A stretch of 64,000 nucleotides of DNA from Candidatus Methylomirabilia bacterium. GTDB taxonomy: Bacteria; Methylomirabilota; Methylomirabilia; Rokubacteriales; CSP1-6. The notes beneath the pieces are model-generated. The model was given only the letters and a program-made list of their open reading frames with translations. It had not been told where the DNA came from and did no database searches. The DNA lies in contig JBGPTW010000002.1 in the NCBI GenBank assembly GCA_041490825.1, positions 28,445 to 92,444 on the forward strand, given 5' to 3'. Positions 29,114-48,456 of this stretch are shown one piece after another. Within the stretch, counting starts at the first letter, position 1. Every line of letters begins with the position of its first letter. The position numbers were made by a program, and so were the translations under genes.

Positions 29114-29252
29114 GCCCGGGGCGCTCAACCTCACGGGGCGCCGATGTCCCAGGTGGTGAGTCGGCTCGCCCCGCGTGGGCCAGAAGTATCGAGAGTTTCA
29201 GCGCGCTCGCTTGGCAAAGCTGATGCACGACCATCAGAGCGAGTCTTGCATC

Positions 29253-29588
29253 ATGGTGAAAACGGCTCCGTGCTCGGTCTGTGTCGCGAAAGAGTTTCGA
29301 CGGAGGCTTCGCACGGCCCGCCGGCGCCTCCTCGATGTCGATGGAACGACGAACCCCGGCCGGCGCAGGGCGACGCAGGTGAAGGATCGCCCGACGTGGG
29401 CGGCCGGTATGGCGCGGCTCTCGCGGCTCAACGGCCGCGAGCGCCGTGAGCTCAGCGAGATCGCGGCAGCGGAAGCGCGCCTCGACACCGGGATGTTCGG
29501 GCTGTGCGAAGCCTGTCGCCAGCCCATCGCCTTGGCGCGCCTGCGCGCATCGCCGACGGCGCGACGATGCCGCCGTTGCGAGGCCTGA
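29253..29588 (+). CDS. DksA/TraR-family C4 zinc-finger protein
   Basis: C-terminal ...EIAAAEARLDTGMFGLCEACRQPIALARLRASPTARRCRRCE: CxxC-17-CxxC DksA/TraR finger; start chosen at internal Met27. Confidence 0.7.
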   Translation: MVKTAPCSVCVAKEFRRRLRTARRRLLDVDGTTNPGRRRATQVKDRPTWAAGMARLSRLNGRERRELSEIAAAEARLDTGMFGLCEACRQPIALARLRASPTARRCRRCEA

Positions 29589-29594
29589 CTGATC

Positions 29595-30023
29595 GTGGGA
29601 CAGTACGCGTTCCTCGACGCAATCGCGGTGGCGGACTGCGCGCTGGAGATCGAAGGCCGAAGTCTCGATGACCTGTTCGAGACGGCCGCGCGCGCGCTGG
29701 CGGAGGTGATGGTCGATCCCGCCACGATGACCGCCACGGTCGCGCGGAATCTGAGTCTGACGGCTCCGTCGATCGATCTCCTCTTCTACGACTGGCTGTC
29801 GGAGCTGATCTTCCTCAAGGATCGCGAGGAGCTCGTCTTCACCGACGCCGTCGTCCAGGTCCGGGAGGCCGGCGACTACCAGCTGACCGCGCGTGTGACC
29901 GGGGGCCCGATCGACCGGGAGCGCACGGGCCTGAGGGCCGACGTCAAGGCCGTGACCTTCCACCAGTTCGCGATCGAGCCGACCACGAGGGGCTGGCGCG
30001 CGCGCGTCGTCCTCGACATCTGA
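29595..30023 (+). CDS. Archease (RtcB ligase cofactor)
   Basis: MGQYAFLDAIAVADCALEIEGRSLDDLF...ADVKAVTFHQFAIEPTTRGWRARVVLDI: archease N-term and conserved C-terminal KAVTxH...VVLDI. Confidence 0.85.
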   Translation: MGQYAFLDAIAVADCALEIEGRSLDDLFETAARALAEVMVDPATMTATVARNLSLTAPSIDLLFYDWLSELIFLKDREELVFTDAVVQVREAGDYQLTARVTGGPIDRERTGLRADVKAVTFHQFAIEPTTRGWRARVVLDI

Positions 30024-30032
30024 GACGGATCG

Positions 30033-31508
30033 ATGACGACGCTGGCTGTCGAGTCCCGTTCGATGAAAACCGTGCCGGTCGGCGACTGCATCTGGGAGAT
30101 CCCGCAAAGCGAGAAGCCCGGGATGCAGGTGCCCGCGCGGATCTACGCCTCGAGGGCGCTCCTCGAGCAGATGGATCAGGGCGTGTTCGAGCAGGTGACC
30201 AACGTCGCCTGCTTGCCCGGCATCGTTCGCGCCGCGCTCTGCATGCCCGACGGTCACTGGGGCTACGGCTTCCCGATCGGCGGCGTGGCGGCGTTCCGGG
30301 AGGACACGGGCGTGATTTCTCCCGGGGGAATCGGCTTCGACATCAACTGCGGGATGCGGTTGATCGCCACCACGCTCACCGAGACGGAGATCCGGCCGCG
30401 ACTGCGGGAACTGGTCGACGCGTTCTTTGCGGCCGTTCCGTCGGGCGTGGGCGCCCAAGGATCCGTCCGGCTGTCCGAAGACGAATTCCGGGACGTCATG
30501 GTGCACGGCGCCGGCTGGTGCGTCGAGCATGGATACGGCTGGCCGGACGACCTTGCCACCACCGAGGGCGCGGGCTGCCTCCCCGGCGCCGGACCCGATC
30601 GAGTGAGCGATCGCGCGATCCGGCGCGGCCTGAACCAGCTCGGCACGCTCGGATCCGGCAACCACTATCTCGAGATCCAGGTCGTCCCGGCTGACGGGAT
30701 CCACGACCCGCACGTCGCGAGCGTGTTCGGCGTCACCGGACCGGGACAGGTGCTGGTGATGCTCCACTGCGGATCCCGGGGGTTCGGCCACCAGGTCGGA
30801 ACCGACTATCTCCGGAAGTTCGACCAGGCCATGCGCGCGTACGGCATCACGGTCAGGGACCGCGAGCTGGCGTGCGCGCCATTCCGCTCGCCGGAAGGGC
30901 AGGCGTACTTCGGCGCGATGAACGCGGCGGCGAACGTGGCATTCGCCAACCGACAGGTGATCACGCACCGCATCCGCGAGGTGATGGCGCGGGTCTTCGG
31001 CCGCAGCGCTCGCGAGCTCGGACTCTCGGTGGTGTACGACGTCTGCCACAACACGGCGAAGCTCGAGCGCCACGTCGTCGACGGTGAGGCGCTCCAGCTC
31101 GTCGTGCACAGAAAGGGCGCCACGCGGTCGTTCGGCCCCGGCGCGCCCGATGTCCCGCCGGCGTACCGCGACGTCGGGCAGCCGGTGATCATCGGCGGGT
31201 CGATGGAGACCGGCTCGGCGCTGCTGGTGGGGACGGCGCACGCCATGAGAGAGACGTTCGGCTCCACGGCACACGGGGCCGGACGGACGATGTCGCGGGC
31301 TCAGGCCAGGCGCAAGGTCCGGGGCGAGACGCTCATCGCCGAGATGGCGGCGCGCGGCATCGTCGTCCGGGCGGCGTCGAAATCCGGCGTCGCCGAGGAG
31401 GCGGGCTTCGCCTACAAGAGCCTCGCCGACGTCGTCGACGTCGTCCATCGCCTCGACGTCTCGCGCCGGGTCGTGTCGCTCACACCGATCGGTAACGTGA
31501 AGGGCTGA
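30033..31508 (+). CDS. rtcB: RNA-splicing ligase RtcB
   Basis: MPDGHWGYGFPIGGVAAF, GGIGFDINCGMRL, NHYLEIQVV, HCGSRGFGHQV: canonical RtcB metal/GTP-binding motifs. Confidence 0.95.
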   Translation: MTTLAVESRSMKTVPVGDCIWEIPQSEKPGMQVPARIYASRALLEQMDQGVFEQVTNVACLPGIVRAALCMPDGHWGYGFPIGGVAAFREDTGVISPGGIGFDINCGMRLIATTLTETEIRPRLRELVDAFFAAVPSGVGAQGSVRLSEDEFRDVMVHGAGWCVEHGYGWPDDLATTEGAGCLPGAGPDRVSDRAIRRGLNQLGTLGSGNHYLEIQVVPADGIHDPHVASVFGVTGPGQVLVMLHCGSRGFGHQVGTDYLRKFDQAMRAYGITVRDRELACAPFRSPEGQAYFGAMNAAANVAFANRQVITHRIREVMARVFGRSARELGLSVVYDVCHNTAKLERHVVDGEALQLVVHRKGATRSFGPGAPDVPPAYRDVGQPVIIGGSMETGSALLVGTAHAMRETFGSTAHGAGRTMSRAQARRKVRGETLIAEMAARGIVVRAASKSGVAEEAGFAYKSLADVVDVVHRLDVSRRVVSLTPIGNVKG

Positions 31509-36399: not shown

Positions 36400-36446
36400 C
36401 GCGCTCGCTGCGGAGGCAGCGGGTGCCGTCTCTGCCGAGCGCCCGC

Positions 36447-36878
36447 TCAGGCCATCCTCGCCGGACGGTCGAGCTCGCGTGACAGGGCCGAGGCCACGAG
36501 CCCCATCTCCTGACCGAAGAGCATCAGCAGGTCGTCGAGCGCGATGATCCCGGTGAGCTTGCCCTTCTTGTCGACCACGGGCAGCCGTCTCACGCCGTTG
36601 GTGCCGAGCATCTTCGTGACGTCGAAGATCCCCTGATCCTCGCGGATCACGGCCGGGCGCGCGTGCATGACGTCGGCCACTGGCACCGTCGCCGGATCGA
36701 GGCCCTCGGCGACGACGGCGATCGCGATGTCGCGGTCGGTCAGGATGCCCTTCGGCTTCTCGCCGTTGACGACGACGAGGGCGCCGACGTTCTTCTGGCG
36801 CATCAACCGCGCTGCGTCGAGGACGGTCGCCGTCGGGGCGATGGTCACCACGGGCTTGATGCAGACTTCTCCGAGCAT
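36447..36878 (-). CDS. CBS-pair domain protein
   Basis: MLGEVCIKPVVTIAPTATVLDAARLMRQKNVGALVVV... and VMHARPAVIREDQGIFDVTKMLGTNGVRRLPVVDKKGKLTGIIALDD; GGAGGTG SD. Confidence 0.8.
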   Translation of the reverse strand: MLGEVCIKPVVTIAPTATVLDAARLMRQKNVGALVVVNGEKPKGILTDRDIAIAVVAEGLDPATVPVADVMHARPAVIREDQGIFDVTKMLGTNGVRRLPVVDKKGKLTGIIALDDLLMLFGQEMGLVASALSRELDRPARMA

Positions 36879-37113
36879 GGGAACACCTCCTTGGGTGTCT
36901 GGTAATTCTTCCGAGAAGAAGCAAGATGAGGGCCGACACGCCGACACGTAACTGTGCGAATCCGCGATCGTTCGGCCCGGCAAATCCGCGGAGGACTGTG
37001 GAGTGCCCGCCCCACGTGAGGCGCGCCGTCAACGACGAGTCTCGCGAACTCGTTGAATTCTCAGACTCGCAGTTCGGCATCCCAGATGCACGAGCGATCG
37101 GTGCACGTTGAGA

Positions 37114-37131
37114 CCAGTGCATTTTCACTGG
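37114..37131. promoter_or_regulatory. Inverted repeat CCAGTG-cattt-t-CACTGG in the divergent CBS / dksA-groEL promoter region
   Basis: Perfect 6-bp arms with 6-bp AT-rich spacer about 70 bp upstream of the dksA-like gene; not a CIRCE element. Confidence 0.25.
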
Positions 37132-37198
37132 GAACCCGGGGAAGCGCTCGATGGCGCGAGTCGCGACCGCCGCGCTTCAGAACGACGAGGATGAATAT

Positions 37199-37561
37199 AT
37201 GGGGAGCAGAGGCGGCCTGAAGCCGGACGTGCTCGGCGAATTCCGGAAGAAGCTGAAGCGCGAGCGTGGACGGTTACTGCGGACGGTCGCACGGACCGAC
37301 GAGGAGCTCGCCACGCTCGAGGCGCACCAGCCAGGCGCGGCCGCGGAGGACGCTGCGACGCAGCTCGCAACGGCGATCCTGTCCCGGCTGGAGGGCCAGG
37401 AGCGGCACGAGCTCGACGAGATCGACGCTGCCCGGGCGCGACTGGAGACCGGCACGTTCGGCACATGTGAGAAGTGCAATCGACCGATCCCGCTCCGGCG
37501 TCTCCGGGCGGTGCCGATCGCCCGCTACTGTCTGTCCTGCCAGCTCGAGGAAGCGGAATAG
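37199..37561 (+). CDS. DksA/TraR-family C4 zinc-finger protein
   Basis: ...EIDAARARLETGTFGTCEKCNRPIPLRRLRAVPIARYCLSCQ: CxxC-17-CxxC; precedes groEL by 12 nt. Confidence 0.75.
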   Translation: MGSRGGLKPDVLGEFRKKLKRERGRLLRTVARTDEELATLEAHQPGAAAEDAATQLATAILSRLEGQERHELDEIDAARARLETGTFGTCEKCNRPIPLRRLRAVPIARYCLSCQLEEAE

Positions 37562-37573
37562 GAGGAAGCTGCG

Positions 37574-39193
37574 ATGGCGCACAAACAAGTGTTGTTTGGA
37601 TCCGAGGCGCGCGAAAGGATTCTCCGCGGCGTCAATGCCCTTGCGGAAGTCGTGCGCGTCACGCTCGGTCCGAAGTCGAAATGCGTGCTGATCGAGAAGA
37701 AGTTCGGCGCGCCGGTCGTCTGCAACGATGGCGTCACCATCGCCAAGGAGCTGAGCCTCGCCGATCCGGCGGAGAACATGGGCGCCAAGATGATCCGTCA
37801 AGCGGCGGAGCGGACCGGCGAGGCCGTCGGCGACGGCACCTCGACGGCGACGGTGCTCGCGCAGGCCATCTTCACCGACGGTGTCCGCAACGTGGTCGCC
37901 GGCGCCAGCGCCATCGATCTCAAGCGAGGGCTCGACCGGGGCGCCAGCGTCGTCGTCGGCGCGCTCCGGGGGCAGTCACGTCCGGTGAAGAGCCGGCTCG
38001 AAAAGGCGCAGGTCGCCGCGATCTCGGCCCACAACAACACGACGATCGGCGATCTGGTCGCCGACGCGATGGAGAAGGTCGGCGACGAGGGCGTCATCAC
38101 GGTGGAGGAGTCGAAGACGACCGAGACCCAGCTCGAGGTCGTGGAAGGTCTCCAGTTCGATCGGGGCTACGTGTCGCCGTACTTCGTGACGGACGCCGAG
38201 AAGATGCAGGCGGTGCTCACCGACGTGCGCATCGTCCTGAGCGACCGGAAGATCAGCGTGATGAAGGATCTGCTTCCCCTGCTCGAGCAGGCCGCGCGGG
38301 CCGCGCAGCCGATGCTCTTCATCGCCGACGACATCGAGGGCGAGGCGCTCGCCACGCTCGTGGTCAACAAGCTGCGCGGCACCCTTCAGTGCGTGGCGGT
38401 CAAGGCGCCGGGGTTCGGCGACCGCCGCCGCGACATGCTGGAGGACATCGCGGTGCTGACCGGAGGCCAGGTGGTCACCGAGGCGCTGGGGCTCAAGTTC
38501 GAGAACCTGCAGCTCACCGAGCTCGGACGGGCCAGCCGGATCGTGGTCGACCGCGACACCGCGACGATCATCGGCGGCGCCGGAGACAAGAAGGCGATCG
38601 AGGGCAGGAAGCAGCAGCTCCGCCAGCAGATCGAAACATCGACCAGCGACTACGACCGCGAGAAGCTGGAGGAGCGTCTGGCGAAGCTGTCGGGCGGCGT
38701 CGCGGTGATCCGCGTCGGCGCGCCGTCAGAGGCGGAGATGAAGAGCAAGAAGGAAGCGCTGGACGATGCGATCGCCGCCACCAAGGCCGCGGTGGCCGAG
38801 GGCATCGTACCGGGCGGCGGGCTCGCCCTGCTCAGAGCCATCGACGCGGTCGAGAAAGAGGAGGCGAAGTCCGAGGGCGACGAGCGCACGGGTCTCCAGA
38901 TCCTTCGCCGGGCGCTCGAGGCCCCGACGCGCCAGATCGCCGAGAATTCTGCCGTCGACGGCGGCGTCGTCGTGGACCGGATGCGCAAGGGCACCGGCAG
39001 CTACGGCTTCGACGCTGCCCGCAAGGAATGGACCGATCTCGTCGAGGCCGGCATCATCGATCCCACGAAGGTGGTCCGCGTCGCCCTCGAGAACGCGGTG
39101 TCGGCGGCCAGCCTGCTCCTCCTGACGGAGGCGACGCTGACCGATATCCGCGAGAAGTCGAAGAGGGAGGAGGCGGAGAACCTCTCCGACTAG
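37574..39193 (+). CDS. groL: Chaperonin GroEL (Cpn60) paralog, no adjacent groES, atypical C-terminal tail
   Basis: VLFGSEARERILRGVNALAEVVRVTLGPKSKCVLIEKKFGAPVVCNDGVTIAKE...AVGDGTSTATVLAQAI...: full-length Cpn60; ends ...REKSKREEAENLSD instead of GGM repeats; AGGAGGAAG SD. Confidence 0.95.
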   Translation: MAHKQVLFGSEARERILRGVNALAEVVRVTLGPKSKCVLIEKKFGAPVVCNDGVTIAKELSLADPAENMGAKMIRQAAERTGEAVGDGTSTATVLAQAIFTDGVRNVVAGASAIDLKRGLDRGASVVVGALRGQSRPVKSRLEKAQVAAISAHNNTTIGDLVADAMEKVGDEGVITVEESKTTETQLEVVEGLQFDRGYVSPYFVTDAEKMQAVLTDVRIVLSDRKISVMKDLLPLLEQAARAAQPMLFIADDIEGEALATLVVNKLRGTLQCVAVKAPGFGDRRRDMLEDIAVLTGGQVVTEALGLKFENLQLTELGRASRIVVDRDTATIIGGAGDKKAIEGRKQQLRQQIETSTSDYDREKLEERLAKLSGGVAVIRVGAPSEAEMKSKKEALDDAIAATKAAVAEGIVPGGGLALLRAIDAVEKEEAKSEGDERTGLQILRRALEAPTRQIAENSAVDGGVVVDRMRKGTGSYGFDAARKEWTDLVEAGIIDPTKVVRVALENAVSAASLLLLTEATLTDIREKSKREEAENLSD

Positions 39194-39208
39194 CCGCGGT
39201 GTGATGCG

Positions 39209-39661
39209 ATGACCCGATCTCGTCCGATCCTCCATGCGGCGGACTTCTCCGCGGCGTCGCGCCCGGCGTTCGCACTGGCCGTCAAGTGGGCGAAGCGGAC
39301 CCGGGCGCCGCTGCTGCTGATGCATGTCACCGCGCCGCCACTGGTGTTGCTCGAGCACGATGGCGCGTTGGCGGAGAGTTTGGCGCTCTCCACGCTGCGC
39401 GACGCGCACTCGAGGCTCGACCGGCTGGTCACCACGGCCAGGAGGGCCGGCGTGAGGGCCTCGACGATCGTGCAGAGCGGCGTGCCCGTCGAGCAGATCG
39501 TCCGCGCAGCTCGCGGGAGCCGGGCTGGCGTGGTGATCATCGGCACCCACGGTCGCACCGGGTGGCCGCGGATCGTGCTGGGAAGCGTCGCCGCTCGTGT
39601 CATTACCCTCGCGCCGTGCCCAGTCGTGACCGTTCGCGCGGGGCCACGCCGGGGTCGCTGA
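39209..39661 (+). CDS. Universal stress protein (UspA family)
   Basis: ILHAADFS...LLLMHV...IIGTHGRTGWPRIVLGSVAARVITLAPCPVVTV. Confidence 0.85.
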   Translation: MTRSRPILHAADFSAASRPAFALAVKWAKRTRAPLLLMHVTAPPLVLLEHDGALAESLALSTLRDAHSRLDRLVTTARRAGVRASTIVQSGVPVEQIVRAARGSRAGVVIIGTHGRTGWPRIVLGSVAARVITLAPCPVVTVRAGPRRGR

Positions 39662-40608
39662 TGGTGCAGCACGAGCTCGCCGAGCAGCGGGACGGACAGA
39701 TGCCGGTCACGGCAGCGCCGGCGAGCGATCGCGCGTTCCCCCGCACCATCGACGCGCTTCTCCCTCCGGACATGGCCCGGCGTGCCGAAGAGCTCGGCAT
39801 CGCGAAGGCGGCGATGCCCGCCGCCAGATTGCTGACGCTCGCGGTGCTCGCAGGCGCATTCATCGCGCTCGGTGGAGTGTTCTCGACGGTGGCCATCGCC
39901 GGCACCAGCGGCGCCCCGTGGGGACCCGTTCGCGTGCTGGCCGGTGTCGTCTTCAGCCTCGGGCTGGTTCTGGTGATCGTCGGAGGCGCCGAGCTCTTCA
40001 CCGGAAACAATCTGATCGTGATGGCATGGGCCGCTCACCGGATCGGGACCGGCGCCGTGTTGCGGAACTGGGCGATCGTCTTCGCGGGAAACTTCGTCGG
40101 GGCGCTCTCGGTCGCCGGCCTTGTCTTCGTCGCGCGGACGCACGAGCTCGGGAGCGGCGCCTTCGGCGTTGCCGCGTTCGTGATCGCCTCGGCCAAGCTC
40201 AGTCTGAGGTTCTCGCAAGCGGTCGCGCTCGGCGTGCTCTGCAATGTGCTCGTCTGCCTCGCCGTGTGGCTGACGTTCAGCGCCCGCAGCACGACGGACC
40301 GCATTCTGGCCATCGTCCCGCCGATCGCGGCGTTCGGTGCCGCCGGGTTCGAGCACTCGATCGCGAACATGTATTTCGTCCCGCTCGCGTGGCTCATTGC
40401 CACGTTCGATCCCGGCTTCCTTGCCACGCGAGGATTGAGCGGCCAGGCCGAGCATCTCGGTTGGGCCGCCTTTCTCCGTGACAACCTGCTGCCGGTCACT
40501 CTGGGCAACGTGATCGGCGGCGCCGTGCTGGTCGGTGTCGTGTACTGGTTCGCGTACCTGTGGACGGGCGCCGGGGAGTCGGCGGCCGAGCGGGGAGACC
40601 GTTCGTGA
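39661..40608 (+). CDS. Formate/nitrite transporter (FNT) family channel
   Basis: Six TM segments, [37 protein letters not shown] signatures; TGATG overlap with usp. Confidence 0.85.
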
Positions 40609-42383
40609 GCTGGCCATCGATCGTCAAGCACCCGGGCCCCGGCGGCGTCGTCCCGAACCTGGAAGACTACGAACGCGGGCGCGCCGAATTCTCGTGGGAC
40701 GAGGCGCGGGCCGAGCTGGACGGGCTCCCGGGCGGCCAGGGTCTCAACATCGCGCACGAGGCGGTGGACCGCCACGCGGCGGGTGCGCGTGGGCAGCATC
40801 TCGCGCTGCGCTGCCTCGGGAAGGACGGCGAGATCCGCGACTACACGTACGCTCGCCTCGCCGAGGTGACCAGCCGCTTCGCGAACGTGGTACGCGCGCT
40901 CGGCGTGGGCCGCGGCGACCGCGTGTACATCCTCGCCGGCCGCATTCCCGAGCTCTACATCGCCGTGCTCGGCACGTTGAAGAACGGGAGCGTCGCCTGC
41001 CCGCTGTTCTCCGCGTTCGGCCCGGAGCCAATTCGCGCGCGCATGACGATCGGCCAGGCGCGCGTGCTGGTCACCACCGAATCGCTGTACCGCCGCAAGG
41101 TCGCGGACCTGCGCTCCGCGCTGCCCGATCTCGAGCACGTCCTGCTCGTGGCCGATCGCCCGCGTCCGGTCGAGGTGCCCGGCACGCGCGACTACCACGC
41201 GCTGATGGCCGAGGCATCTCCACGCTTCACCATCGGCCCGACCGACCCCGAGGACATGGCGCTCCTGCACTTCACGAGCGGAACCACCGGCACGCCGAAG
41301 GGAGCGGTGCACGTCCACGACGCGGTCGTGGCTCATCACGTCACGGGGAAACTGGCGCTCGACTTTCACCCCGACGACGTCTTCTGGTGCACCGCCGATC
41401 CTGGCTGGGTCACGGGGACCTCGTACGGGATCATCGCGCCGCTGACCAACGGCGTGACGAGCATCGTCGACGAGCGGGAGTTCGATGCCGAGCGATGGTA
41501 CGGAATCTTGCAGTCGCAGAACGTGTCCGTCTGGTACACGGCGCCGACCGCGATCCGGATGATGATGAAGACCGGGACAGCGCTGGCCCGGAAGTTCGAT
41601 CTCGCGCGCCTGAGATTCCTGTCGAGCGTCGGCGAGCCTCTCAATCCCGAGGCCGTCGTCTGGGGTGAGGAGACCTTCGGCCATCCGTTCCACGACAACT
41701 GGTGGCAGACGGAGACTGGCGGAATTATGATCGCCAACTTCGCCTCGATGGAGATCCGGCCGGGTTCCATGGGCCGGCCGCTCCCCGGCGTCGAGGCCAC
41801 CATCGTCCGGCGGATCGATCGCGACCGTGTCGAGGTGATCGAGGAGCCGGATCGACAAGGCGAGCTCGCGCTGCGCGCGGGCTGGCCGTCGATGTTCCGC
41901 GGCTACTGGCGCGAGCCCGAGCGCTACCGCAAGTGCTTCGTCGACGGTCTCTATCTCACGGGGGATCTCGTTCGGCGGGATCGGGACGGCTACTTCTGGT
42001 TCGTCGGACGCTCGGACGACGTCATCAAGACCTCGGGCCACCTGATCGGCCCCTTCGAGGTGGAGAGTGTGCTGATGGAGCATCCGGCGGTGGCGGAGGC
42101 CGGCGTCATCGGCAAGCCCGACCCGGTGGCGATGGAGACGGTGAAGGCGTTCGTCTCGCTCAAGGACGGCTGGGAGCCGACGCCGGAGCTCCGGCGTGAG
42201 CTGCTCGCACTCGCGCGGACGCGCCTTGGCGCTGTCGTGGCGCCCAAGGAGATCGATTTCCGCCCGAGCCTGCCGAAGACCCGGAGCGGCAAGATCATGC
42301 GTCGCTTGCTCAAGGCGCGGGAGCTCGGTCTTCCCGAGGGTGACATCTCGACCCTCGAGGACGACACCGGGGAGTCCGGATGA
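40605..42383 (+). CDS. AMP-forming acyl-CoA synthetase (acetyl-/acetoacetyl-CoA synthetase-like)
   Basis: [28 protein letters not shown]...[43 protein letters not shown]; GTG start overlapping FNT stop (alternative ATG at 40560). Confidence 0.85.
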
Positions 42384-43363
42384 TGGAAGACCCGCCCGTG
42401 GAGCGAGAGCACGCGCTCGCGCTGCTTCGACAGATGCTGCTCATCCGCCGCTTCGAGGAGAAGGCAGCCGAGGTCTACACGCTCGGCAAGATCCGAGGAT
42501 TCCTCCACCTCTACATCGGCGAAGAAGCCGTCGCCGTCGGCGCCATGCAGGCGTTCACGCCGGACGACGCGATCGTCGCGACCTATCGCGAGCACGGCCA
42601 GGCGCTCGCGCGCGGGATCCCGCCCGGGTCGTTGATGGCGGAGATGTACGGCAAGGCGAACGGGTGCAGCCGGGGCCGCGGCGGCTCCATGCACTTCTTC
42701 GACGTCTCGCGCCGGTTCTATGGCGGCCACGCCATCGTCGGGGGCGGACTCCCGATCGCGGTAGGCCTCGCGCTCGCCGACAAGCTTCAGGAGCGCAATC
42801 GCATCACCGCGTGCTTCTTCGGGGATGGCGCCGTTGCCGAAGGCGAGTTCCACGAGTCACTCAATCTCGCAGCGCTGTGGAATCTGCCGGTGCTTTTTCT
42901 CTGTGAGAACAACTTCTATGCGATGGGGACGGCGCTGTCGCGTCATCAGGCGCAGCCCGACATCACGCTCAAGGCGACAGGGTATGGCGTCCCCGCCGAA
43001 GGGGTCGACGGCATGGACGTTCTCGCCGTTGAAGCAGCGACCCAGCGAGCCGCAGACGTGGTGCACGGCGGCCCCGGACCGTTCCTGCTGGAGGCGCGCA
43101 CGTACCGGTACCGGGCTCACTCGATGGCCGATCCCGAGCTGTATCGACCGAAGCAGGAAGTGGAGGAGTGGAAGACGCGCGATCCCATCGTGACGTTCAC
43201 CGCTCAGCTGCGCGCGTGGGGACTCTTCACCGAGGCGGATTCGGCGGCCATCGAAGCGGAGATCGCGACCGAGATCGATCGAGCGGTCGCGGTCGCGGAA
43301 GCGGGACCCTGGGAGCCCGTCGAGGACCTCACCAAGGACGTCTACACGCCGGTGAGTCGATGA
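42380..43363 (+). CDS. Pyruvate/acetoin dehydrogenase E1 component alpha subunit (TPP-dependent)
   Basis: [18 protein letters not shown]-binding [37 protein letters not shown]. Confidence 0.9.
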
Positions 43364-44341
43364 CGACGAAGAAGATGACCTACCGCGAGGCGGTGCGCGG
43401 CGCGCTGCGCGAGGCGCTCCGGAGCGATCCGCGCGTCTTCGTGATGGGCGAGGACGTCGGCCGCTACGGCGGCTCCTTCGCCGTCACGCATGGTCTTCTC
43501 GAGGAGTTTGGCCCCGAGCGTGTCCGGGACACGCCGCTCTCGGAGTCGACGTTCCTCGGGGCCGGCATCGGCGCCGCGCTCGGAGGGATGCGGCCGATCG
43601 TCGAGATCATGACCGTGAACTTCGGTCTCCTCGCGCTCGACCAGATCGTCAACAACGCGGCCACGCTGCGGCACATGTCAGGGGGCCAGCTCAGCGTGCC
43701 GCTCGTCGTGCGCATGGCGACCGGCGGCGGACGCCAGATGGCGGCCCAGCACTCGCACAGCCTGGAAGGCTGGTACGCGCACATCCCGGGGATCAAGATC
43801 CTCGTGCCGGCGACGGTCGCCGACGCCAGAGGCCTGCTGGTGGCAGCGCTCGACGAACCCGATCCGGTCTTCGTCTTCGAGCACGCCACGCTCTATCCGC
43901 TCGAGGGCGAGATCGATCTCGACGCGGGCCCTGCCGATATCGGAAAGGCCGCGGTGAGGCGCGCCGGCGACGCCATCACGCTGATCACCTACGGCGGCAC
44001 GCTCGGCAAGACGCTCGAGGCGGCGGACCGTCTCGCGGCCGAGGGCATCGACGCCGAGGTGATCGATCTGCGCTCGCTCCGGCCGCTCGACACGCCGACG
44101 ATTCTCGTCTCGGTCGCGAAGACGCACCGAGCGCTGATCGTCGACGAAGGCTGGCGCACCTGCAGCTTCGCGGCCGAGGTCAGCGCGCAGATCATGGAGC
44201 GTGGCTTCTACGACCTCGACGCCCCGGTCGCGCGCGTGTGCAGCGCGGAGGTGCCGATGCCCTACGCGAAACACATGGAGGATGCGGCACTGCCACAGGT
44301 CGCCACCATCGTCGACACGGCGCGCGCGATCCTGAAACCGC

Positions 44342-44349
<8 letters not shown>
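43360..44349 (+). CDS. Pyruvate/acetoin dehydrogenase E1 component beta subunit
   Basis: [46 protein letters not shown]...: transketolase-like pyrimidine-binding and C-terminal domains; ATGA overlap. Confidence 0.9.
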
Positions 44350-45459
<1,110 letters not shown>

Positions 45460-45463
<4 letters not shown>

Positions 45464-45711
45464 CGAGAGACGAGCTCCGGGCCACGGTGATACGCGTGCT
45501 CGGCGACATCGCGCCGGAGATCGACGCCGGCTCGCTCGAGCCGAGCGTCGCGTTGCGCGAGCAGCTCGACCTGGACTCGATGGACGTCCTCAACTTCATG
45601 GTCGGGCTTCATGCGGCGGTCGGCATCGACATTCCCGAGACGGATTATCCAAGGCTCTCCACGCTCGAGGGGTGCGTGGAGTACCTGGCGGCGAAAGACC
45701 GCGGTCCATGA
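45460..45711 (+). CDS. Acyl-carrier-protein-like small protein
   Basis: 83 aa; [15 protein letters not shown] carrier-domain Ser motif; GTG start overlapping E2 stop (GTGA). Confidence 0.6.
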
Positions 45712-45717
45712 CGAGAC

Positions 45718-46218
45718 GTGGAGGTTGCCATGGCGATTACGGAACGGCTCAAGCGTGTTCTGGATGCCGAGCGGGTTCGTTACGAGGTCCTGCCGCACCA
45801 CGAGGAGTTCACGGCCCAGAGAGTCGCGGCGGCGAGCGACGTCCCCGGCCGGCAAGTCGCGAAGGTGCTGATCTGTCGTGACGATGCCGGACGCTCGCTG
45901 ATGGCCGTGCTTCCAGCGGCCTGCCGCATCGACCTGATCGCGCTTCAGGCAGCGGCCGGGACGGGGAAGCTCTCGCTGGCCACCGAGGCGGAATTCGAGC
46001 CGCTGTTCCCGGACTGCGAAACCGGAGCGATGCCGCCGTTCGGGACCCTGTGGAACATGCCGCTCTACGTCGACGCCTGCTTCCCGCGGGCGAAAGATTT
46101 CGTCTTCCAGGGCGGGAATCATCACGAGGTGGTCGTCATGCCGTACGAAGCGTACGAGCGGATCGCGAAACCCGTCGCCGGCGAGTTCTGCCTCGAGAAA
46201 CGGGTCGCCGCCGCCTGA
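45718..46218 (+). CDS. YbaK/ProX-like aminoacyl-tRNA deacylase domain protein
   Basis: ...LPHHEEFTAQRVAAASDVPGRQVAKVLIC...GAMPPFGTLWNMPLYVD... pattern of YbaK/aa-tRNA-synthetase-associated editing domain. Confidence 0.65.
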   Translation: MEVAMAITERLKRVLDAERVRYEVLPHHEEFTAQRVAAASDVPGRQVAKVLICRDDAGRSLMAVLPAACRIDLIALQAAAGTGKLSLATEAEFEPLFPDCETGAMPPFGTLWNMPLYVDACFPRAKDFVFQGGNHHEVVVMPYEAYERIAKPVAGEFCLEKRVAAA

Positions 46219-46249
46219 GTCAGGGACGAAACGCGGGACGCGAGCCGGA

Positions 46250-47308
46250 GTGCGAGACGCGGCCCCTACTGAGGCGCCTGTGCTAGCGCTCGACGCCTCA
46301 CACGGTGAGGGTGGCGGCCAGATCGTGCGCACCGCGCTCGCACTCGCGGTGGCCCTGCGTCGGCCAGTTGCGCTGGAGCGCATCCGCTTGCGGCGGCCGA
46401 AGCCCGGGCTCCAGCCGCAGCACCTCACGGTGGTCCGGGCCCTGGCGGCGATCAGCGACGCGCAGGTCGACGGCGATCAGCTCGGCTCGACGGCGCTGTC
46501 TTTCGCGCCGCGCACTCTCCACGCGGGCGACTGGCACTTCGACATCGGCGCCGTCAAGGGCAGCGCGGGCTCGGTGTCGCTGCTCTTCCAGTCATTGCTA
46601 CTCGCGCTGGCATTCGGTAGCGCACCATCCCGGCTGACGCTCGTCGGCGGCACGCACGTGCCGTGGAGCCCGACGGTGCATTACCTGACCGCGGTCTTCG
46701 TGCCCGCGCTGGCGCCGCTCGGATTCGCCGCCGACGTGCGCCTGCGGCGCTGGGGCTGGTATCCGGCGGGTGGTGGACAGATCGAGGCCACCGTCACCCC
46801 GGCGAGGCACATGGCCGGGGTGACGGCGACGAACCCGCCACGTCCACTCGCGATCGCCGGCGTCTCCGCGGTGTCGCACCTGCCGCGCTCCATCGCCGAG
46901 CGCCAGCGCCGGCAGGCCGAGGCGCGCCTCGAGGCCGCGGGCCTGAGCGCCGCCATCACGATCGAAGAGGATGCCGCCGCGCACGGCCCAGGCACCGTGC
47001 TGTTCCTCGGAGTCCACGGCCGGGGCGGCTTCTCCGGGCTGGGTCGGCGCGGCCTGCGCGCCGAGCGCGTGGCCGACGAGGCCGTGGACGCGCTGCTCGA
47101 CTGGCGGGCGAGCGGCGCCGCGATCGACGTGCACCTGGCCGATCAGCTGGTGCCGTTCCTCGCGCTCGCCGAGGGTCCGTCGTCATTCACGTGTCCGCGG
47201 CTGTCGGACCACCTGCGTACCGTCGCGTGGGTCGTGCAGCAATTCCTGGCGGTCGACATCGTCCTCGACGACGAGCGCCCGGCCCGGGTGGAGGTCGTGC
47301 CGATATGA
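46250..47308 (+). CDS. rtcA: RNA 3'-terminal phosphate cyclase RtcA
   Basis: LDASHGEGGGQIVRTALALAVAL, HLTVVRALAAI, GSAGSVSLLFQSLLLALAF, His site region LADQLVPFLALAEG. Confidence 0.85.
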   Translation: MRDAAPTEAPVLALDASHGEGGGQIVRTALALAVALRRPVALERIRLRRPKPGLQPQHLTVVRALAAISDAQVDGDQLGSTALSFAPRTLHAGDWHFDIGAVKGSAGSVSLLFQSLLLALAFGSAPSRLTLVGGTHVPWSPTVHYLTAVFVPALAPLGFAADVRLRRWGWYPAGGGQIEATVTPARHMAGVTATNPPRPLAIAGVSAVSHLPRSIAERQRRQAEARLEAAGLSAAITIEEDAAAHGPGTVLFLGVHGRGGFSGLGRRGLRAERVADEAVDALLDWRASGAAIDVHLADQLVPFLALAEGPSSFTCPRLSDHLRTVAWVVQQFLAVDIVLDDERPARVEVVPI

Positions 47309-48456
47309 CGTCTCCACTCACGCTCTTCCTCTGTGGCGACGTGATGACGGGCCGCGGCGTCGACCAGGCGCTTCCGCATCCCGGCGATCCGCGCATCCAC
47401 GAGCCGCACGTGAAGAGCGCCGAGCGGTACGTGGAGATCGCCGAGCGGGCGAACGGCCCGATTCCGCGCCCCGTCGAATTTTCCTACATCTGGGGCGACG
47501 CGCTCGAGGAGCTCGCGCGCGTGCGGCCGAGCGCGCGAATCGTGAACTTAGAAACCAGCATCACGCGAAGCGACGACTACTGGAGGGGCAAGGGGATCAA
47601 CTACCGGATGCACCCGCACAATGTTCCCTGCCTCACGGCCGCGCGCATCGACTGCTGCGTCCTCGCGAACAACCACGTGCTCGACTACGGCTACCCGGGC
47701 TTGATCGAGACGCTCGAGAGTCTACAGAGGCTTGGCGTGACGACCGCGGGCGCGGGCCGGAATCTCGCTGAGGCGCGAGCACCGGCCGTGATCGACGTTC
47801 CAGGGCAAGGACGAGTGATCGTCTTCGCATTTGGAACGGAGACGAGCGGGATCCTCCCGGGCTGGGCGGCAACGGAAGACCGGCCCGGCGTGAGCTTCCT
47901 GCAGGATCTGTCGGACCAAACCCTGGAACAGGTCGCCGAGACTCTGCGGAGCGTCAAGCGACCCCGCGACGTCGTCGTCGCGTCCATCCACTGGGGTGAC
48001 AACTGGGGATTCGCCGTTCCAGAGGACCACGTCCGCTTTGCGCATGGTCTCATCCACGCTGAAGTGGACATCGTCCACGGACACTCCTCGCACAACGTTC
48101 GCCCGATCGAGGTGTTCGAGGGGAAGCTCATTCTCTACGGGTGCGGCGACTTCCTCGACGACTACGAGGGCATCGGCGGCCACGAAGAATTCCGGGACGA
48201 CCTCACGTTGATGTACTTCCCGACCGTGGACCCTCTCACCGGTCGGCTCTCCGACCTGCGCATGACGCCGATGCGGATCCGGCATTTCAAGGTCAACCGC
48301 GCGTCGCGCGAGGAAGCCGGATGGCTGAGCGACACGATTACTCGCGAGAGCGAGCGGTTCGACTTCCGGCTGGAGCTCCGCGAAGACCACCGCCTCGAGC
48401 TTCGGTGGGCCTACGACGGCTGCGCTAGAGACGACAGGCGCCGGGATCGCACGTGA
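47305..48456 (+). CDS. CapA/PGA_cap-family metallophosphatase-fold protein (poly-gamma-glutamate synthesis CapA-like)
   Basis: LFLCGDVMTGRGVD, NLETSITRSDD, VLANNHVLDYGYPGL, HWGDNWGF, VHGHSSH; ATGA overlap with rtcA. Confidence 0.8.
   Translation: MTSPLTLFLCGDVMTGRGVDQALPHPGDPRIHEPHVKSAERYVEIAERANGPIPRPVEFSYIWGDALEELARVRPSARIVNLETSITRSDDYWRGKGINYRMHPHNVPCLTAARIDCCVLANNHVLDYGYPGLIETLESLQRLGVTTAGAGRNLAEARAPAVIDVPGQGRVIVFAFGTETSGILPGWAATEDRPGVSFLQDLSDQTLEQVAETLRSVKRPRDVVVASIHWGDNWGFAVPEDHVRFAHGLIHAEVDIVHGHSSHNVRPIEVFEGKLILYGCGDFLDDYEGIGGHEEFRDDLTLMYFPTVDPLTGRLSDLRMTPMRIRHFKVNRASREEAGWLSDTITRESERFDFRLELREDHRLELRWAYDGCARDDRRRDRT

What the first reader, a model, noticed from the sequence alone, without database searches (positions are those of the whole stretch)
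37199..39661. GroES-less GroEL paralog co-operonic with a DksA/TraR zinc finger and followed by usp
A full-length Cpn60 begins 12 nt after a DksA/TraR-like gene. It has no groES upstream and ends in a charged tail (REKSKREEAENLSD) instead of the Gly-Met repeats. It is followed 15 nt later by a usp gene. This looks like a stress-regulon-dedicated chaperonin paralog, not the housekeeping groESL.
Basis: partly seen in the sequence, partly recalled or inferred. Interest (0 to 1): 0.5.

Follow-up and report, generated by a model that had tools for sequence, protein, structure and literature searches.

The report
Stress-island GroEL paralog with DksA-like leader
This is an extra copy of the protein-folding machine GroEL, from a widespread lineage of GroEL genes that lack their partner gene groES and sit among low-oxygen or dormancy survival genes; here, in a soil Rokubacterium, it follows a small DksA-like zinc-finger gene and a probable sigma-54 promoter.

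Summary
A DksA/TraR gene (37199-37561) is followed after 12 nt by a full-length GroEL (37574-39193, tail REKSKREEAENLSD, no Gly-Met repeat). A usp gene (39209-39661) follows after 15 nt. No groES or CIRCE element lies in the 64-kb window.

The organism is a Methylomirabilota (Rokubacteria) bacterium. Its GroEL belongs to a distinct clade found in many phyla:
- Within the clade, identity averages 73%. Identity to groES-linked GroELs averages 56%.
- No member has a neighbouring groES or a GGM tail.
- Members sit among Usp, Hsp20, CBS, BON, hibernation-factor, P-type ATPase and acetyl-CoA synthetase/2-oxoacid dehydrogenase genes.

In Proteobacteria, 30 of 60 members carry an FNR/FixK box upstream. 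In Bradyrhizobium, groEL5 is FixK2-dependent. Here the operon instead follows a sigma-54-type -24/-12 motif. The window holds 11 such motifs against 1.8 expected, all co-oriented with stress genes.

The DksA-like gene belongs to a Rokubacteria-specific expansion. Its members also precede usp, cytochrome c, ATPase and archease-RtcB genes.

One gap remains: a housekeeping groESL in this genome could not be shown directly. Stand-alone, low-oxygen-regulated GroELs are already known, so this is a new variant of a known kind, of moderate interest.

The parts
37010..37021 (.). Candidate upstream activator site, an imperfect palindrome CCCCACGTGAGG (consensus CCCCA-N1-2-TGGGG), 60 nt before the -24 element
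   Evidence: Perfect copies occur 3 times in the window against 0.14 expected. A copy with at most 1 mismatch lies 60-95 nt upstream of 4 of 12 sigma-54-type promoters, against a random mean of 0.3. This is suggestive only.
37076..37090 (+). Sigma-54-type -24/-12 promoter motif GGCATCCCAGATGCA, upstream of the dksA-like-groEL operon
   Evidence: GGCA-N7-TGCA occurs 11 times in the window against 1.8 expected, and 0 of 100 shuffles reached 11. All 11 are co-oriented with, and 25-110 nt upstream of, the next gene. The same motif lies before the dksA-like gene in L001 and L029, and directly before groEL in L002, L066, L053 and L057.
37199..37561 (+). DksA/TraR-family C4 zinc-finger protein, 120 aa (alternative start 37151 gives 136 aa)
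   Evidence: PF01258 E=1e-11. The NCBIfam DksA equivalog scores fall below their cut-offs (69 vs 105 bits, 62.5 vs 115.5 bits). PDB sequence matches are 2KQ9 at 3e-11 and E. coli DksA 1TJL at 2e-7. The AlphaFold model (pLDDT 77.5) is a helical hairpin plus zinc ribbon. Its best fold matches are DksA2 4IJJ and DksA 1TJL, with TM about 0.52 and probability 1.00.
37574..39193 (+). GroEL (Cpn60) of the stand-alone, stress-island clade, 539 aa, with a short charged tail
   Evidence: ATPase residues D52, D87 and D398 are kept, as are apical residues Y199, S201, Y203, F204, L234, L237, L259, V263 and V264. It carries the clade-specific equatorial changes T90S, K105R, E434G, E461D and S463G.
39209..39661 (+). 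Universal stress protein, 150 aa, with the ATP-binding-type motif G-x2-G-x9-G-S (GTHGRTGWPRIVLGS)
   Evidence: PF00582 E=1.5e-24. The motif was read from the translation.
39661..40608 (+). FocA-like formate/nitrite-family channel, 315 aa. Its ATG overlaps the usp stop (TGATG).
   Evidence: PF01226 E=1e-72; TIGR04060 scores 261 bits, below its cut-off of 290. The start was read and matches the gene call in L137.
40605..42383 (+). AMP-forming acetyl/acyl-CoA synthetase-like enzyme, 592 aa
   Evidence: PF00501 and PF13193. Coordinates come from the L137 gene calls. The same gene follows the stand-alone GroEL in L004, L026, L085, L087, L096 and L105.
42380..45463 (+). 2-oxoacid (pyruvate/acetoin-type) dehydrogenase: E1 alpha 42380-43363, E1 beta 43360-44349, E2 44342-45463
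   Evidence: PF00676; PF02779 and PF02780; PF00364, PF02817 and PF00198. The genes overlap one another. The same set lies near the stand-alone GroEL in Rhizobium, Paracoccaceae, Gemmataceae and Pseudomonas loci.
45460..48456 (+). Possible continuation of the operon: ACP-like 45460-45711, YbaK-like tRNA_edit 45730-46218, RNA cyclase RtcA 46280-47308, PGA_cap 47305-48456
   Evidence: Gene calls on the near-identical contig L137 and Pfam. All are on the + strand, with gaps of at most 61 nt.
29213..31508 (+). Sister module: sigma-54-type motif 29213-29227, second DksA/TraR paralog 29253-29588, archease 29589-30023, RtcB 30024-31508
   Evidence: (63% identity to the first paralog over 57 C-terminal residues).
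36447..36878 (-). Divergent CBS-pair protein, 143 aa, bordering the promoter region
   Evidence: PF00571 E=1e-27; gene call in L137.

Best explanation
**What it is.** The GroEL at 37574-39193 is an accessory chaperonin in a Methylomirabilota (Rokubacteria) genome. It belongs to an old, widely dispersed clade of stand-alone GroELs. These travel with a low-oxygen or dormancy-type survival gene set: Usp, Hsp20, CBS, BON, ribosome hibernation factor, eRF1-like 'host attachment' proteins, P-type ATPases, an acetyl-CoA-synthetase-like enzyme with a 2-oxoacid dehydrogenase, and others.

**What is shown here.**
- GroEL is the second gene of a tightly packed operon: dksA-like, groEL, usp, focA-like, acs-like, E1 alpha, E1 beta and E2, possibly running on to rtcA.
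- A sigma-54-type -24/-12 motif precedes the operon. It is one of at least 11 such motifs in front of stress and repair genes in the window.
- The ATPase residues and the apical GroES/substrate-binding residues are intact.

**What is inferred.**
- The operon is silent during growth. An enhancer-binding activator, not encoded in the window, switches it on together with the rest of the regulon during energy or oxygen limitation.
- GroEL then works as an ATP-dependent folding cage, using GroES encoded elsewhere with the housekeeping groESL. It maintains or refolds proteins during growth arrest or resuscitation.
- The clade-wide changes at the nucleotide loop, the ring-ring contacts and the tail may alter ring communication or keep it from mixing with the housekeeping GroEL.
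- The DksA-like protein is a regulon-level factor, not a GroEL-specific partner. It most likely binds the RNA polymerase secondary channel, so that induction of any of these operons also reprograms transcription, for example by destabilising sigma-70 open complexes and favouring sigma-54 and stress promoters.
For: **Identity and lineage.** The closest homologs are named Rokubacteria or Methylomirabilota, and all top 120 share the short charged tail.

**A separate clade.**
- 63 loci lacking groES share 62-97% identity (mean 73%). Against 14 canonical GroELs the mean is 56% and the maximum 62%.
- Together with three groES-less Myxococcota sequences, they form one clade that contains no groES-linked GroEL.
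- Plasmid hits are bimodal: 21 records at 66-71% identity and 1,769 below 60%.
- None of the clade members has groES upstream, while all 13 GroELs at 57-60% identity do.

**Recurrent neighbours.** These were found by clustering and Pfam and in annotated R. johnstonii pRL9. The same holds in other Rokubacterial subclades.

**Regulation elsewhere.**
- An FNR/FixK/Anr box lies within 350 nt upstream in 30 of 60 clade members, all Proteobacteria, against a background of 0.07 per 350 nt.
- pRL9 groL has an anaerobox at -93.
- B. diazoefficiens blr4635 (groEL5) has a FixK2 box and is 29-fold down in a fixK2 mutant (PMC9104804).

**Regulation here.**
- The sigma-54 motif is enriched, 11 against 1.8 expected, and all copies are co-oriented with their downstream gene.
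- The motif is conserved in L001, L029, L002 and L066.
- An NtrC-type activator lies beside a DksA-like/HPF locus in L108.
- No CIRCE was found.

**Functional residues.**

**GroES dependence and paralog status.** Stand-alone GroEL2 of M. xanthus needs GroES. In genomes with a single groEL, groES is always adjacent (PMC5406781).

**The DksA-like gene.**
- Its fold is DksA-like.
- The family has 615 homologs, and those with names are almost all Rokubacteria or NC10.
- Downstream partners are GroEL (11 loci), cytochrome c with Usp (about 15), Usp (3), P-type ATPase (3) and archease (1).

**Window context.** The window also holds six Usp genes, five or six CBS-domain genes, two BON genes, HPF, FtsH, PCMT, RtcB/RtcA, a ribonucleotide reductase and three P-type ATPases.
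Against: - No housekeeping groES-groEL of this genome, or of any Methylomirabilota genome, was retrieved. The GroES profile search returned only Deltaproteobacteria. 'Paralog' therefore rests on clade membership and a published survey.
- No rpoN gene and no enhancer-binding protein lie in the window. The one activator found nearby in a related contig has an atypical GAFSDA loop.
- Only 6 of 51 metagenomic DksA-like loci have the strict sigma-54 motif upstream, and about 11 have a relaxed one. The candidate activator site fits only 4 of 12 promoters.
- The inducing signal in Rokubacteria is inferred from the gene content and from proteobacterial relatives. There are no expression data.
- The DksA-like protein lacks the first Asp of the DxxDxA tip and scores below the DksA equivalog cut-offs.
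- That blr4635 belongs to the same sequence clade is inferred from synteny. It was not checked by alignment.
Confidence: 0.7

Rival explanations
1. It is the only, housekeeping GroEL of this lineage, and groES is encoded elsewhere in a split arrangement.
For: No canonical groESL from Methylomirabilota was recovered with the tools available. The gene has the highest third-position GC in the window (0.91), which may indicate high expression. All functional residues are intact.
Against: In 4,861 genomes, a single groEL was always next to groES (PMC5406781). The gene lies in a clade that is an extra copy in genera I know to carry a canonical groESL. It sits mid-operon behind a sigma-54-type promoter with usp and fermentation-type genes. 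It has no CIRCE.
Confidence: 0.05
2. It is a GroES-independent or single-ring chaperonin or holdase. Its changed equatorial domain and tail give it a different mechanism from the classical double-ring cage.
For: There are 30 clade-specific substitutions, all in the equatorial domain. They include the nucleotide loop (DGTST instead of DGTTT) and the ring-ring contacts K105R, E434G, E461D and S463G. The GGM tail is lost in every member. Some stand-alone Cpn60s, such as those of M. tuberculosis and Anabaena, form lower oligomers (cited in PMC5406781).
Against: The apical residues that bind GroES and substrates are conserved across the clade, and so are D52, D87 and D398. The stand-alone GroEL2 of M. 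xanthus, whose lineage branches next to this clade, strictly needs GroES (PMC5406781). The substitutions are conservative (K to R, E to D, T to S), apart from E434G.
Confidence: 0.15
3. The GGCA-N7-TGCA elements are operators of a palindrome-binding regulator, not sigma-54 promoters. In that case the operon is transcribed by a sigma-70-family holoenzyme.
For: Several copies are near-perfect palindromes, for example GCATC-N3-GATGC at 37077 and 27096. No rpoN or enhancer-binding protein lies in the window. A sigma-70-family gene lies at 59420-60847.
Against: The pattern is asymmetric (GG at -24, GC at -12, with exact spacing). All 11 copies point towards the adjacent gene and lie 25-110 nt before its start. 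Variants in related loci match the classical TGGCAC-N5-TTGC consensus, for example GGCACGGGGCTTGC in L107 and L135 and GGCACGGCAGTTGCA in L053. The sigma-70 consensus scan found nothing before the operon.
Confidence: 0.15
4. The DksA-like protein is a dedicated partner or autoregulator of this GroEL, such as a zinc-finger co-factor or an operon-specific regulator, rather than a general RNA-polymerase factor.
For: The pair is kept as a unit, with 11-21 nt gaps, behind at least three different upstream contexts: ligA, a PolX/PHP gene and a sigma-54 promoter. DksA/TraR genes also lie beside canonical groESL in two Desulfobacteraceae loci (L077, L078).
Against: The same subfamily more often precedes usp, cytochrome c, P-type ATPase or archease-RtcB genes. 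7 of 12 Rokubacterial stand-alone GroEL loci, and all proteobacterial ones, lack it. Its fold and its conserved tip residues Glu-Asp-Ala match secondary-channel factors.
Confidence: 0.1

Closest known systems
Bradyrhizobium diazoefficiens GroEL5 (blr4635), a FixK2-activated stand-alone groEL next to hspC2, usp and a host-attachment protein (PMC9104804)
   Same: It has no groES and lies among Hsp20, Usp and eRF1-like 'host attachment' genes. It belongs to a low-oxygen regulon, so it is an accessory copy rather than the housekeeping one.
   Different: It is activated from an FNR-type FixK2 box, not a sigma-54 promoter. It has no DksA-like leader and is monocistronic. Its membership in the same sequence clade is inferred from synteny with L047 and L136, not verified by alignment.
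Rhizobium johnstonii 3841 plasmid pRL9 groL (RL_RS26085)
   Same: 68.9% identical to the window GroEL, in the same clade and with no groES. Its neighbours are USPs, BON, a HlyD/RbbA transporter, a host attachment protein, an APH-like kinase and AdhP.
   Different: It has an anaerobox TTGATATCGGTCAA at -93 and six more anaeroboxes in the 25 kb around it. It is plasmid-borne, next to the fixK/hfixL/fixNOQP genes (PMC7888657). It has no DksA-like gene.
Myxococcus xanthus GroEL2, a stand-alone groEL (PMC5406781)
   Same: It is a groEL without groES in a genome that also has groESL1. It was shown experimentally to still require GroES. Myxococcota stand-alone GroELs branch next to this clade.
   Different: About 61% identical. 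It is not in a Usp/CBS island, and it is regulated with the heat-shock system.
Burkholderia cenocepacia lxa locus and the Mycobacterium tuberculosis DosR regulon (PMC3721108)
   Same: These are comparable at island level. They have many USPs, alpha-crystallin, BON ('phospholipid-binding') proteins, a ribonucleotide reductase and a cation ATPase. They serve survival of growth arrest under anoxia.
   Different: Neither is reported to include a GroEL. Their regulators are FNR-like (the lxa motif) or DosR, not sigma-54.
E. coli DksA, P. aeruginosa DksA2 and TraR (RNA polymerase secondary-channel factors)
   Same: It has a coiled-coil hairpin plus C4 zinc ribbon, with a conserved acidic residue and Ala at the tip.
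   Different: It is shorter (about 114-120 aa) and lacks the first Asp of DxxDxA. It scores below the DksA equivalog cut-offs. It is multi-copy, embedded in stress operons and restricted to Methylomirabilota.
E. coli rtcBA (sigma-54/RtcR-dependent) and B. japonicum groESL3 (sigma-54/NifA-dependent; recalled from Fischer et al. 1993, not checked here)
   Same: These are precedents for sigma-54 control of RNA-repair genes and of a chaperonin paralog.
   Different: groESL3 keeps its groES. The rtc operon of E. coli has no DksA-like or archease gene. The activator here is unknown.

Membership tests
Group I chaperonin GroEL/Cpn60 | Full-length match to the GroEL equivalog model above its trusted cut-off | tested here: met
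   TIGR02348 scores 742 bits against a cut-off of 582. NF009489 scores 832 bits against 464.
Group I chaperonin GroEL/Cpn60 | ATP-binding and hydrolysis residues (D52, D87, D398, and the GDGTTT loop) | tested here: met
   D52, D87 and D398 are kept. The loop reads GDGTST, with T90S in 59 of 63 clade members. The E. coli reference sequence was recalled from memory, but the positions were checked against 13 groES-linked sequences.
Group I chaperonin GroEL/Cpn60 | Apical hydrophobic residues that bind GroES and substrates (Y199, S201, Y203, F204, L234, L237, L259, V263, V264) | tested here: met
   All are identical in the window protein and conserved or conservatively replaced across the clade.
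Housekeeping groESL operon | groES immediately upstream | tested here: not met
   No GroES was found by tblastn in the 64-kb window. No Cpn10 lies within 10 kb either side on the near-identical contig.
Housekeeping groESL operon | C-terminal Gly-Gly-Met repeat tail | tested here: not met
   The tail is REKSKREEAENLSD. All 120 closest homologs and all clade members lack GGM.
Housekeeping groESL operon | Heat-shock operator (CIRCE/HrcA) | tested here: not met
   No CIRCE in the window with up to 3 mismatches, or in 36400-37600 with up to 5. It is absent from all 64 stand-alone loci checked. Sigma-32-type promoters were not tested.
Stand-alone 'low-oxygen island' GroEL clade (pRL9 groL / blr4635 type) | Falls inside the clade of groES-less GroELs, separate from groES-linked ones | tested here: met
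   NJ tree and identity distributions. The window protein carries 29 of the 30 clade-specific residues.
Stand-alone 'low-oxygen island' GroEL clade (pRL9 groL / blr4635 type) | Neighbourhood of Usp, CBS, BON, HPF, Hsp20, ATPase and Acs/2-oxoacid dehydrogenase genes | tested here: met
   No Hsp20 gene was identified in this window.
Stand-alone 'low-oxygen island' GroEL clade (pRL9 groL / blr4635 type) | FNR/FixK/Anr box upstream | tested here: not met
   No such box was seen in the intergenic sequence before the operon, and none lies upstream of GroEL in any Methylomirabilota locus scanned. It is present in 30 of 60 clade members, all Proteobacteria. A sigma-54 motif takes its place here.
Stand-alone 'low-oxygen island' GroEL clade (pRL9 groL / blr4635 type) | Induction by oxygen or energy limitation | not testable with these tools
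   No expression data exist for this organism.
DksA (RNA polymerase secondary-channel factor) | C4 zinc finger (CxxC-N17-CxxC) | tested here: met
   C90, C93, C111 and C114 are invariant in 72 homologs.
DksA (RNA polymerase secondary-channel factor) | Coiled-coil hairpin that reaches into the secondary channel | tested here: met
   The model has helices 9-42 and 47-84. Its best fold matches are DksA2, DksA and the DksA-RNAP complex.
DksA (RNA polymerase secondary-channel factor) | DxxDxA motif at the coiled-coil tip | tested here: inconclusive
   The tip reads HQPGAxxEDA. In the HMMER alignment, E. coli D74 pairs with the conserved Glu-Asp (E50-D51), and an Ala follows. D71 aligns with Gly/Ala.
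DksA (RNA polymerase secondary-channel factor) | Score above the NCBIfam DksA equivalog cut-offs | tested here: not met
   NF033459 scores 69 bits against 105. TIGR02420 scores 62.5 bits against 115.5.
DksA (RNA polymerase secondary-channel factor) | Binding to RNA polymerase | not testable with these tools
   This needs biochemistry.
Sigma-54-dependent promoter | GG at -24 and GC at -12 with exact spacing, correctly placed and oriented | tested here: met
   GGCATCCCAGATGCA at 37076-37090. The window has 11 copies against 1.8 expected, all co-oriented with their genes.
Sigma-54-dependent promoter | Enhancer-binding activator, upstream activator site and rpoN in the genome | tested here: inconclusive
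   No GAFTGA protein in the window. An NtrC-type activator lies in related locus L108. The candidate palindrome is found at 4 of 12 promoters. rpoN could not be searched for.

The most novel reading that the evidence does not exclude
A single ancient 'dormancy and repair' gene kit has spread across bacterial phyla while swapping its master switch. The kit comprises a dedicated GroEL lineage with a remodelled ring-ring interface, plus Usp, CBS, BON, a hibernation factor, eRF1-like proteins and fermentative acetyl-CoA enzymes. The switch is FNR/FixK/Anr in Proteobacteria and sigma-54 in Rokubacteria, some Acidobacteriota and Deltaproteobacteria-labelled genomes. In Rokubacteria the kit has also gained a lineage-specific family of DksA-like polymerase factors, seeded as leader genes into many of its operons. 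Switching on any operon would then feed back on RNA polymerase and lock the cell into a growth-arrested state.
Probability: 0.25. Interest if true: 0.65.

Novelty: new variant of a known kind. Interest (0 to 1): 0.45.

Why it matters
Stand-alone groEL genes make up about 15% of all groEL genes, but most have no assigned role. This case links one coherent GroEL lineage to a conserved low-oxygen or dormancy gene set in many phyla. It also shows that the same set is wired to different regulators in different lineages.

For Rokubacteria, an abundant and uncultured soil phylum, it points to a large sigma-54-type stress and repair regulon and to a lineage-specific expansion of DksA-like factors. Both predictions can be tested with metatranscriptomes and simple biochemistry.

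The clade-wide changes at the GroEL ring interface suggest how two chaperonins might coexist in one cell without mixing.

Tried and rejected
- **Exact-sequence look-ups.** Look-ups of the window GroEL and of P0001 found nothing. P0002 located near-identical contigs.
- **Search for a Methylomirabilota groES.** A GroES profile search of the 5.8-billion-protein set returned only Deltaproteobacteria-type GroES. No GroES lies in any of the 54 metagenome loci. The canonical-copy test therefore stayed open.
- **Standard regulatory elements.** CIRCE, Rfam families and the sigma-70 promoter and terminator scan gave nothing relevant upstream of the operon.
- **Mis-specified motif.** A first sigma-54 pattern with the wrong spacing (N8) was not enriched. 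The correct N7 spacing was.
- **Activator in the window.** A search for GAFTGA, ESELFGH and Walker A signatures found no enhancer-binding protein.
- **Shared activator site.** k-mer and dyad counting gave only the CCCCA-N1-2-TGGGG palindrome, which fits 4 of 12 promoters.
- **Literature.** Searches for DksA with GroEL/RtcB/Usp, or for Rokubacteria with GroEL, found nothing. The lxa-locus paper mentions no GroEL.
- **Gene-calling artefact.** My GC3-based gene caller mis-called two + strand ORFs at 19091-21019. The real gene there is a P-type ATPase on the minus strand.
- **Recent transfer.** This was considered and set aside, because the GC content of the operon (0.67-0.69) matches the rest of the window.

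Full report
**1. The observation**

- The DksA/TraR zinc-finger gene ends at 37561. It most likely starts at the ATG at 37199, which has GAGGA 7 nt upstream. An automatic caller prefers 37151.
- GroEL runs from 37574 to 39193 and usp from 39209 to 39661.
- All three have strong family matches.
- The gaps are 12 and 15 nt, and a GGAGGA ribosome-binding site fills the first.
- GroEL ends ...TDIREKSKREEAENLSD.
- No GroES is detectable anywhere in the 64-kb window.
- A near-identical contig annotated with Pfam shows no Cpn10 within 10 kb.

**2. The operon is longer than reported**

- The usp stop overlaps the ATG of a FocA-like channel gene (39661-40608).
- That gene overlaps an AMP-forming acetyl-CoA-synthetase-like gene (40605-42383).
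- Next come the E1 alpha, E1 beta and E2 genes of a 2-oxoacid dehydrogenase (42380-45463).
- Small + strand genes then run on to RtcA and a PGA_cap gene.
- No terminator-like site or sigma-70-like promoter interrupts this string.

**3. Organism**

The nearest proteins are about 100% identical copies from a JGI metagenome and from NCBI assembly GCA_041482695.1. After those come homologs at 79-83% identity; most of those that carry a source name are labelled Candidatus Rokubacteria or Methylomirabilota.

**4. The GroEL belongs to a distinct clade of stand-alone GroELs**

A scan of GTDB species genomes returned 80 loci.
- Every locus at 66% identity or more lacks groES. These loci come from Rokubacteria, Binataceae, many Alphaproteobacteria (including Mesorhizobium, Bradyrhizobium, Ensifer, Sinorhizobium and Rhizobium), Pseudomonas and Stutzerimonas, Burkholderiaceae, Acidobacteriota and Gemmataceae.
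- At 57-62% identity, 13 loci have groES immediately upstream. Three Myxococcota loci in that range do not.
- In an NJ tree, all 66 groES-less sequences form one clade, set apart by a long branch. Within-clade identity averages 73%; identity to canonical GroELs averages 56%.
- Plasmid records show the same gap: 21 at 66-71% identity and 1,769 below 60%.
- All members carry short acidic or proline-rich tails and the motif ...LLLTEATMTE-PE... instead of ...LLTTEAMV..GGM.

There are 30 positions where the clade and the canonical set each have their own conserved residue. All 30 lie in the equatorial domain. They include T90S in the phosphate loop and K105R, E434G, E461D and S463G. From my own knowledge of the E. 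coli structure, the last four are ring-ring contacts.

The catalytic residues and the apical GroES/substrate-binding residues are unchanged. I therefore infer a GroES-dependent cage with possibly altered ring communication. The stand-alone GroEL2 of M. xanthus was shown to need GroES (PMC5406781).

**5. The neighbourhood is conserved across phyla**

I clustered the ORFs of all loci and ran Pfam on representatives. This gave a recurring set:
- single and tandem Usp, Hsp20, CBS, BON, and a hibernation factor (sometimes fused to a cold-shock domain);
- a LonC-like protease, a P-type ATPase, a Zn-alcohol dehydrogenase, a Crp/Fnr regulator and PEP synthase;
- PRPP synthetase, a phosphoribosyltransferase, a dienelactone-hydrolase-like protein and an APH-like kinase;
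- the same Acs-like and E1/E2 genes that follow GroEL in the window.

The annotated pRL9 plasmid of R. johnstonii 3841 shows this directly: groL lies among USPs, BON, HlyD/RbbA, a host attachment protein and AdhP. Other Rokubacterial subclades show GroEL with Crp/Fnr, CBS, HPF, baeRF/host-attachment, archaeal-type SAM synthetase and PolX-like genes.

The gene content resembles the B. cenocepacia lxa locus and the M. tuberculosis DosR regulon, which are not reported to contain a GroEL (PMC3721108).

The window itself is one such island from about 10.3 kb to its end. It holds:
- six Usp genes, five or six CBS-domain genes and two BON genes;
- HPF, a small cytochrome c and FtsH;
- three tandem P-type ATPases;
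- PCMT and SAM synthetase;
- archease-RtcB and RtcA;
- a YbaK-like editing protein, a ribonucleotide reductase, PRPP synthetase and a phosphoribosyltransferase-hydrolase fusion.

**6. Regulation**

*In Proteobacteria.* 30 of 60 clade members have TTGA-N6-TCAA within 350 nt upstream, mostly 64-160 nt before the start. The background is 0.07 per 350 nt.
- pRL9 groL has an anaerobox at -93, and there are seven anaeroboxes in the 25 kb around it.
- B. diazoefficiens groEL5 (blr4635) has a FixK2 box and is 29-fold lower in a fixK2 mutant. Its neighbours hspC2 and usp and a host-attachment gene behave the same way (PMC9104804).
- A low-oxygen regulon role for a stand-alone GroEL is therefore already documented.

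*In the window.* There is no such box and no CIRCE. Instead GGCATCCCAGATGCA lies at 37076-37090.
- The pattern GGCA-N7-TGCA has the sigma-54 -24/-12 spacing. It occurs 11 times against 1.8 expected, and 0 of 100 shuffles reached 11.
- All 11 copies point at the adjacent gene and lie 25-110 nt before its start. The genes are tandem Usp, the P-type ATPases, PCMT-SAM synthetase, the second dksA-like-archease-RtcB module, DUF2267, GYD, Usp-PRTase, PRPP synthetase, a small ORF and another Usp.
- A twelfth variant (TGGTAC...GTGCA) precedes BON-HPF-cytochrome c.
- The motif also lies before the dksA-like gene in L001 and L029. It lies directly before groEL in two Methylomirabilota loci, one locus labelled Deltaproteobacteria and one Bryobacteraceae locus.
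- A palindrome CCCCA-N1-2-TGGGG lies 60-95 nt upstream of four of these promoters, including this one with one mismatch. It is enriched but does not explain the rest.
- No activator gene is in the window. An NtrC-type one sits beside a DksA-like/HPF pair in metagenome locus L108.

Sigma-54 control is therefore a well-supported inference, not a demonstration.

**7. The DksA-like gene**

- It matches DksA structures by sequence (2KQ9 at 3e-11, 1TJL at 2e-7).
- Its model is a helical hairpin plus zinc ribbon. The best fold matches are DksA2, DksA and DksA bound to RNA polymerase.
- The four Cys residues are invariant. The tip reads HQPGAxxEDA across 120 homologs. It keeps the counterpart of E. 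coli D74 and the following Ala, but not D71.
- It scores below the DksA equivalog cut-offs.
- The subfamily has 615 detectable members. Those with names are almost all Rokubacteria or NC10.
- A second copy lies 8 kb upstream in the window, before archease-RtcB.
- In 54 metagenome loci, the gene after it is GroEL in 11, a small cytochrome c followed by Usp in about 15, Usp in 3, a P-type ATPase in 3 and archease in 1. The DksA-like gene is itself often preceded by a CBS gene.
- 7 of 12 Rokubacterial stand-alone GroEL loci lack it.

It is therefore a regulon-level module rather than a GroEL partner. Its proposed role, reshaping RNA polymerase activity when the regulon fires, is an inference from the family.

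**8. What stays open**

I could not retrieve a canonical groESL from this or any other Methylomirabilota genome. The paralog status rests on two things:
- clade membership;

The inducing signal in Rokubacteria is inferred from gene content and from proteobacterial relatives.

**9. Verdict**

Stand-alone GroELs are common, and a low-oxygen-regulated one is known in rhizobia, so the core finding is not new in kind.

What appears undescribed in the literature I could search:
- the recognition of one coherent GroEL lineage tied to this island across phyla;
- its equatorial signature;
- the swap from FNR-type to sigma-54-type control;
- the Rokubacteria-specific DksA-like leader genes.

I rate it a new variant of a known kind, of moderate interest.

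Noticed in passing
window 12002, 16797, 26893(-), 27095, 29213, 37076, 52075(-), 52411, 55671, 58929(-), 61594(-), 61820: A dense set of sigma-54-type -24/-12 motifs (consensus yGGCAy-N5-GATGCAc): 11 strict copies against 1.8 expected, plus one variant. Each points at a stress or repair gene. This looks like one large regulon covering most of the window.
   Followed up: partly
window 27095-31508: A repair operon: protein-isoaspartyl methyltransferase (27180-27908), archaeal-type SAM synthetase (27821-29113), a second DksA/TraR paralog (29253-29588), archease and RtcB. One sigma-54-type motif lies at its head and another before the dksA-like gene. RtcA lies separately at 46280-47308.
   Followed up: partly
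window 18893-26800 (-): Three P-type cation ATPase genes in tandem on the minus strand, with a sigma-54-type motif at 26893 and a perfect CCCCACTGGGG palindrome at 26997 shared with the divergent PCMT promoter.
   Followed up: partly
window 98-9605: The first 10 kb looks like a defence region, not part of the stress island. It has an HmaC AAA+ ATPase with an N-terminal Swt1-like HEPN domain (98-3436, PADLOC 1183 bits), an NA37 nucleoid-associated-like protein (4423-6297, -) and an IetS-like subtilase (6666-9605). GC drops to 0.62 at 4-6 kb.
   Followed up: partly
GroEL alignment of 63 stand-alone vs 14 canonical sequences (window 37574-39193): All 30 clade-defining substitutions lie in the equatorial domain. 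They include DGTST for DGTTT and changes at the ring-ring contacts K105R, E434G, E461D and S463G. None lies in the apical domain.
   Followed up: partly
L011-L061 (proteobacterial loci), 64-230 nt upstream of groEL: FNR/FixK/Anr boxes (TTGA-N6-TCAA) lie before half of all stand-alone GroELs, including three Pseudomonas species that share the same box TTGATAAAAGTCAA at about -84.
   Followed up: partly
L078 4220-4519 and L077 3641-3799: In two Desulfobacteraceae genomes, a distant DksA/TraR gene lies right next to the canonical groES-groEL operon. It is upstream of groES in L078 and about 1.1 kb downstream of groEL in L077.
   Followed up: no
L108 1779-3197: An NtrC-type response regulator with a sigma-54 interaction domain, but an atypical GAFSDA loop, sits about 700 nt from a DksA-like gene and a divergent hibernation factor in a Rokubacteria-like metagenome contig. 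It is a candidate regulator of the regulon.
   Followed up: partly
window 59420-60847 (-): A 475-aa sigma-70-family factor with regions 1.2, 2, 3 and 4 lies inside the stress island. It could be an alternative principal-like sigma factor for stationary phase.
   Followed up: no
window 48425-50629 (-) and 50671-51477 (-): A ribonucleotide reductase large-subunit-type gene is followed by a CBS-BON fusion protein. This echoes the reductase found in the lxa and DosR low-oxygen regulons.
   Followed up: no
window 33622-36399 (-): A 925-aa fusion of an acyl-AMP ligase, a carrier-protein domain and a glycerolipid acyltransferase domain lies between the CBS genes and the GroEL operon. It is a possible lipid-remodelling enzyme of the island.
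   Followed up: no
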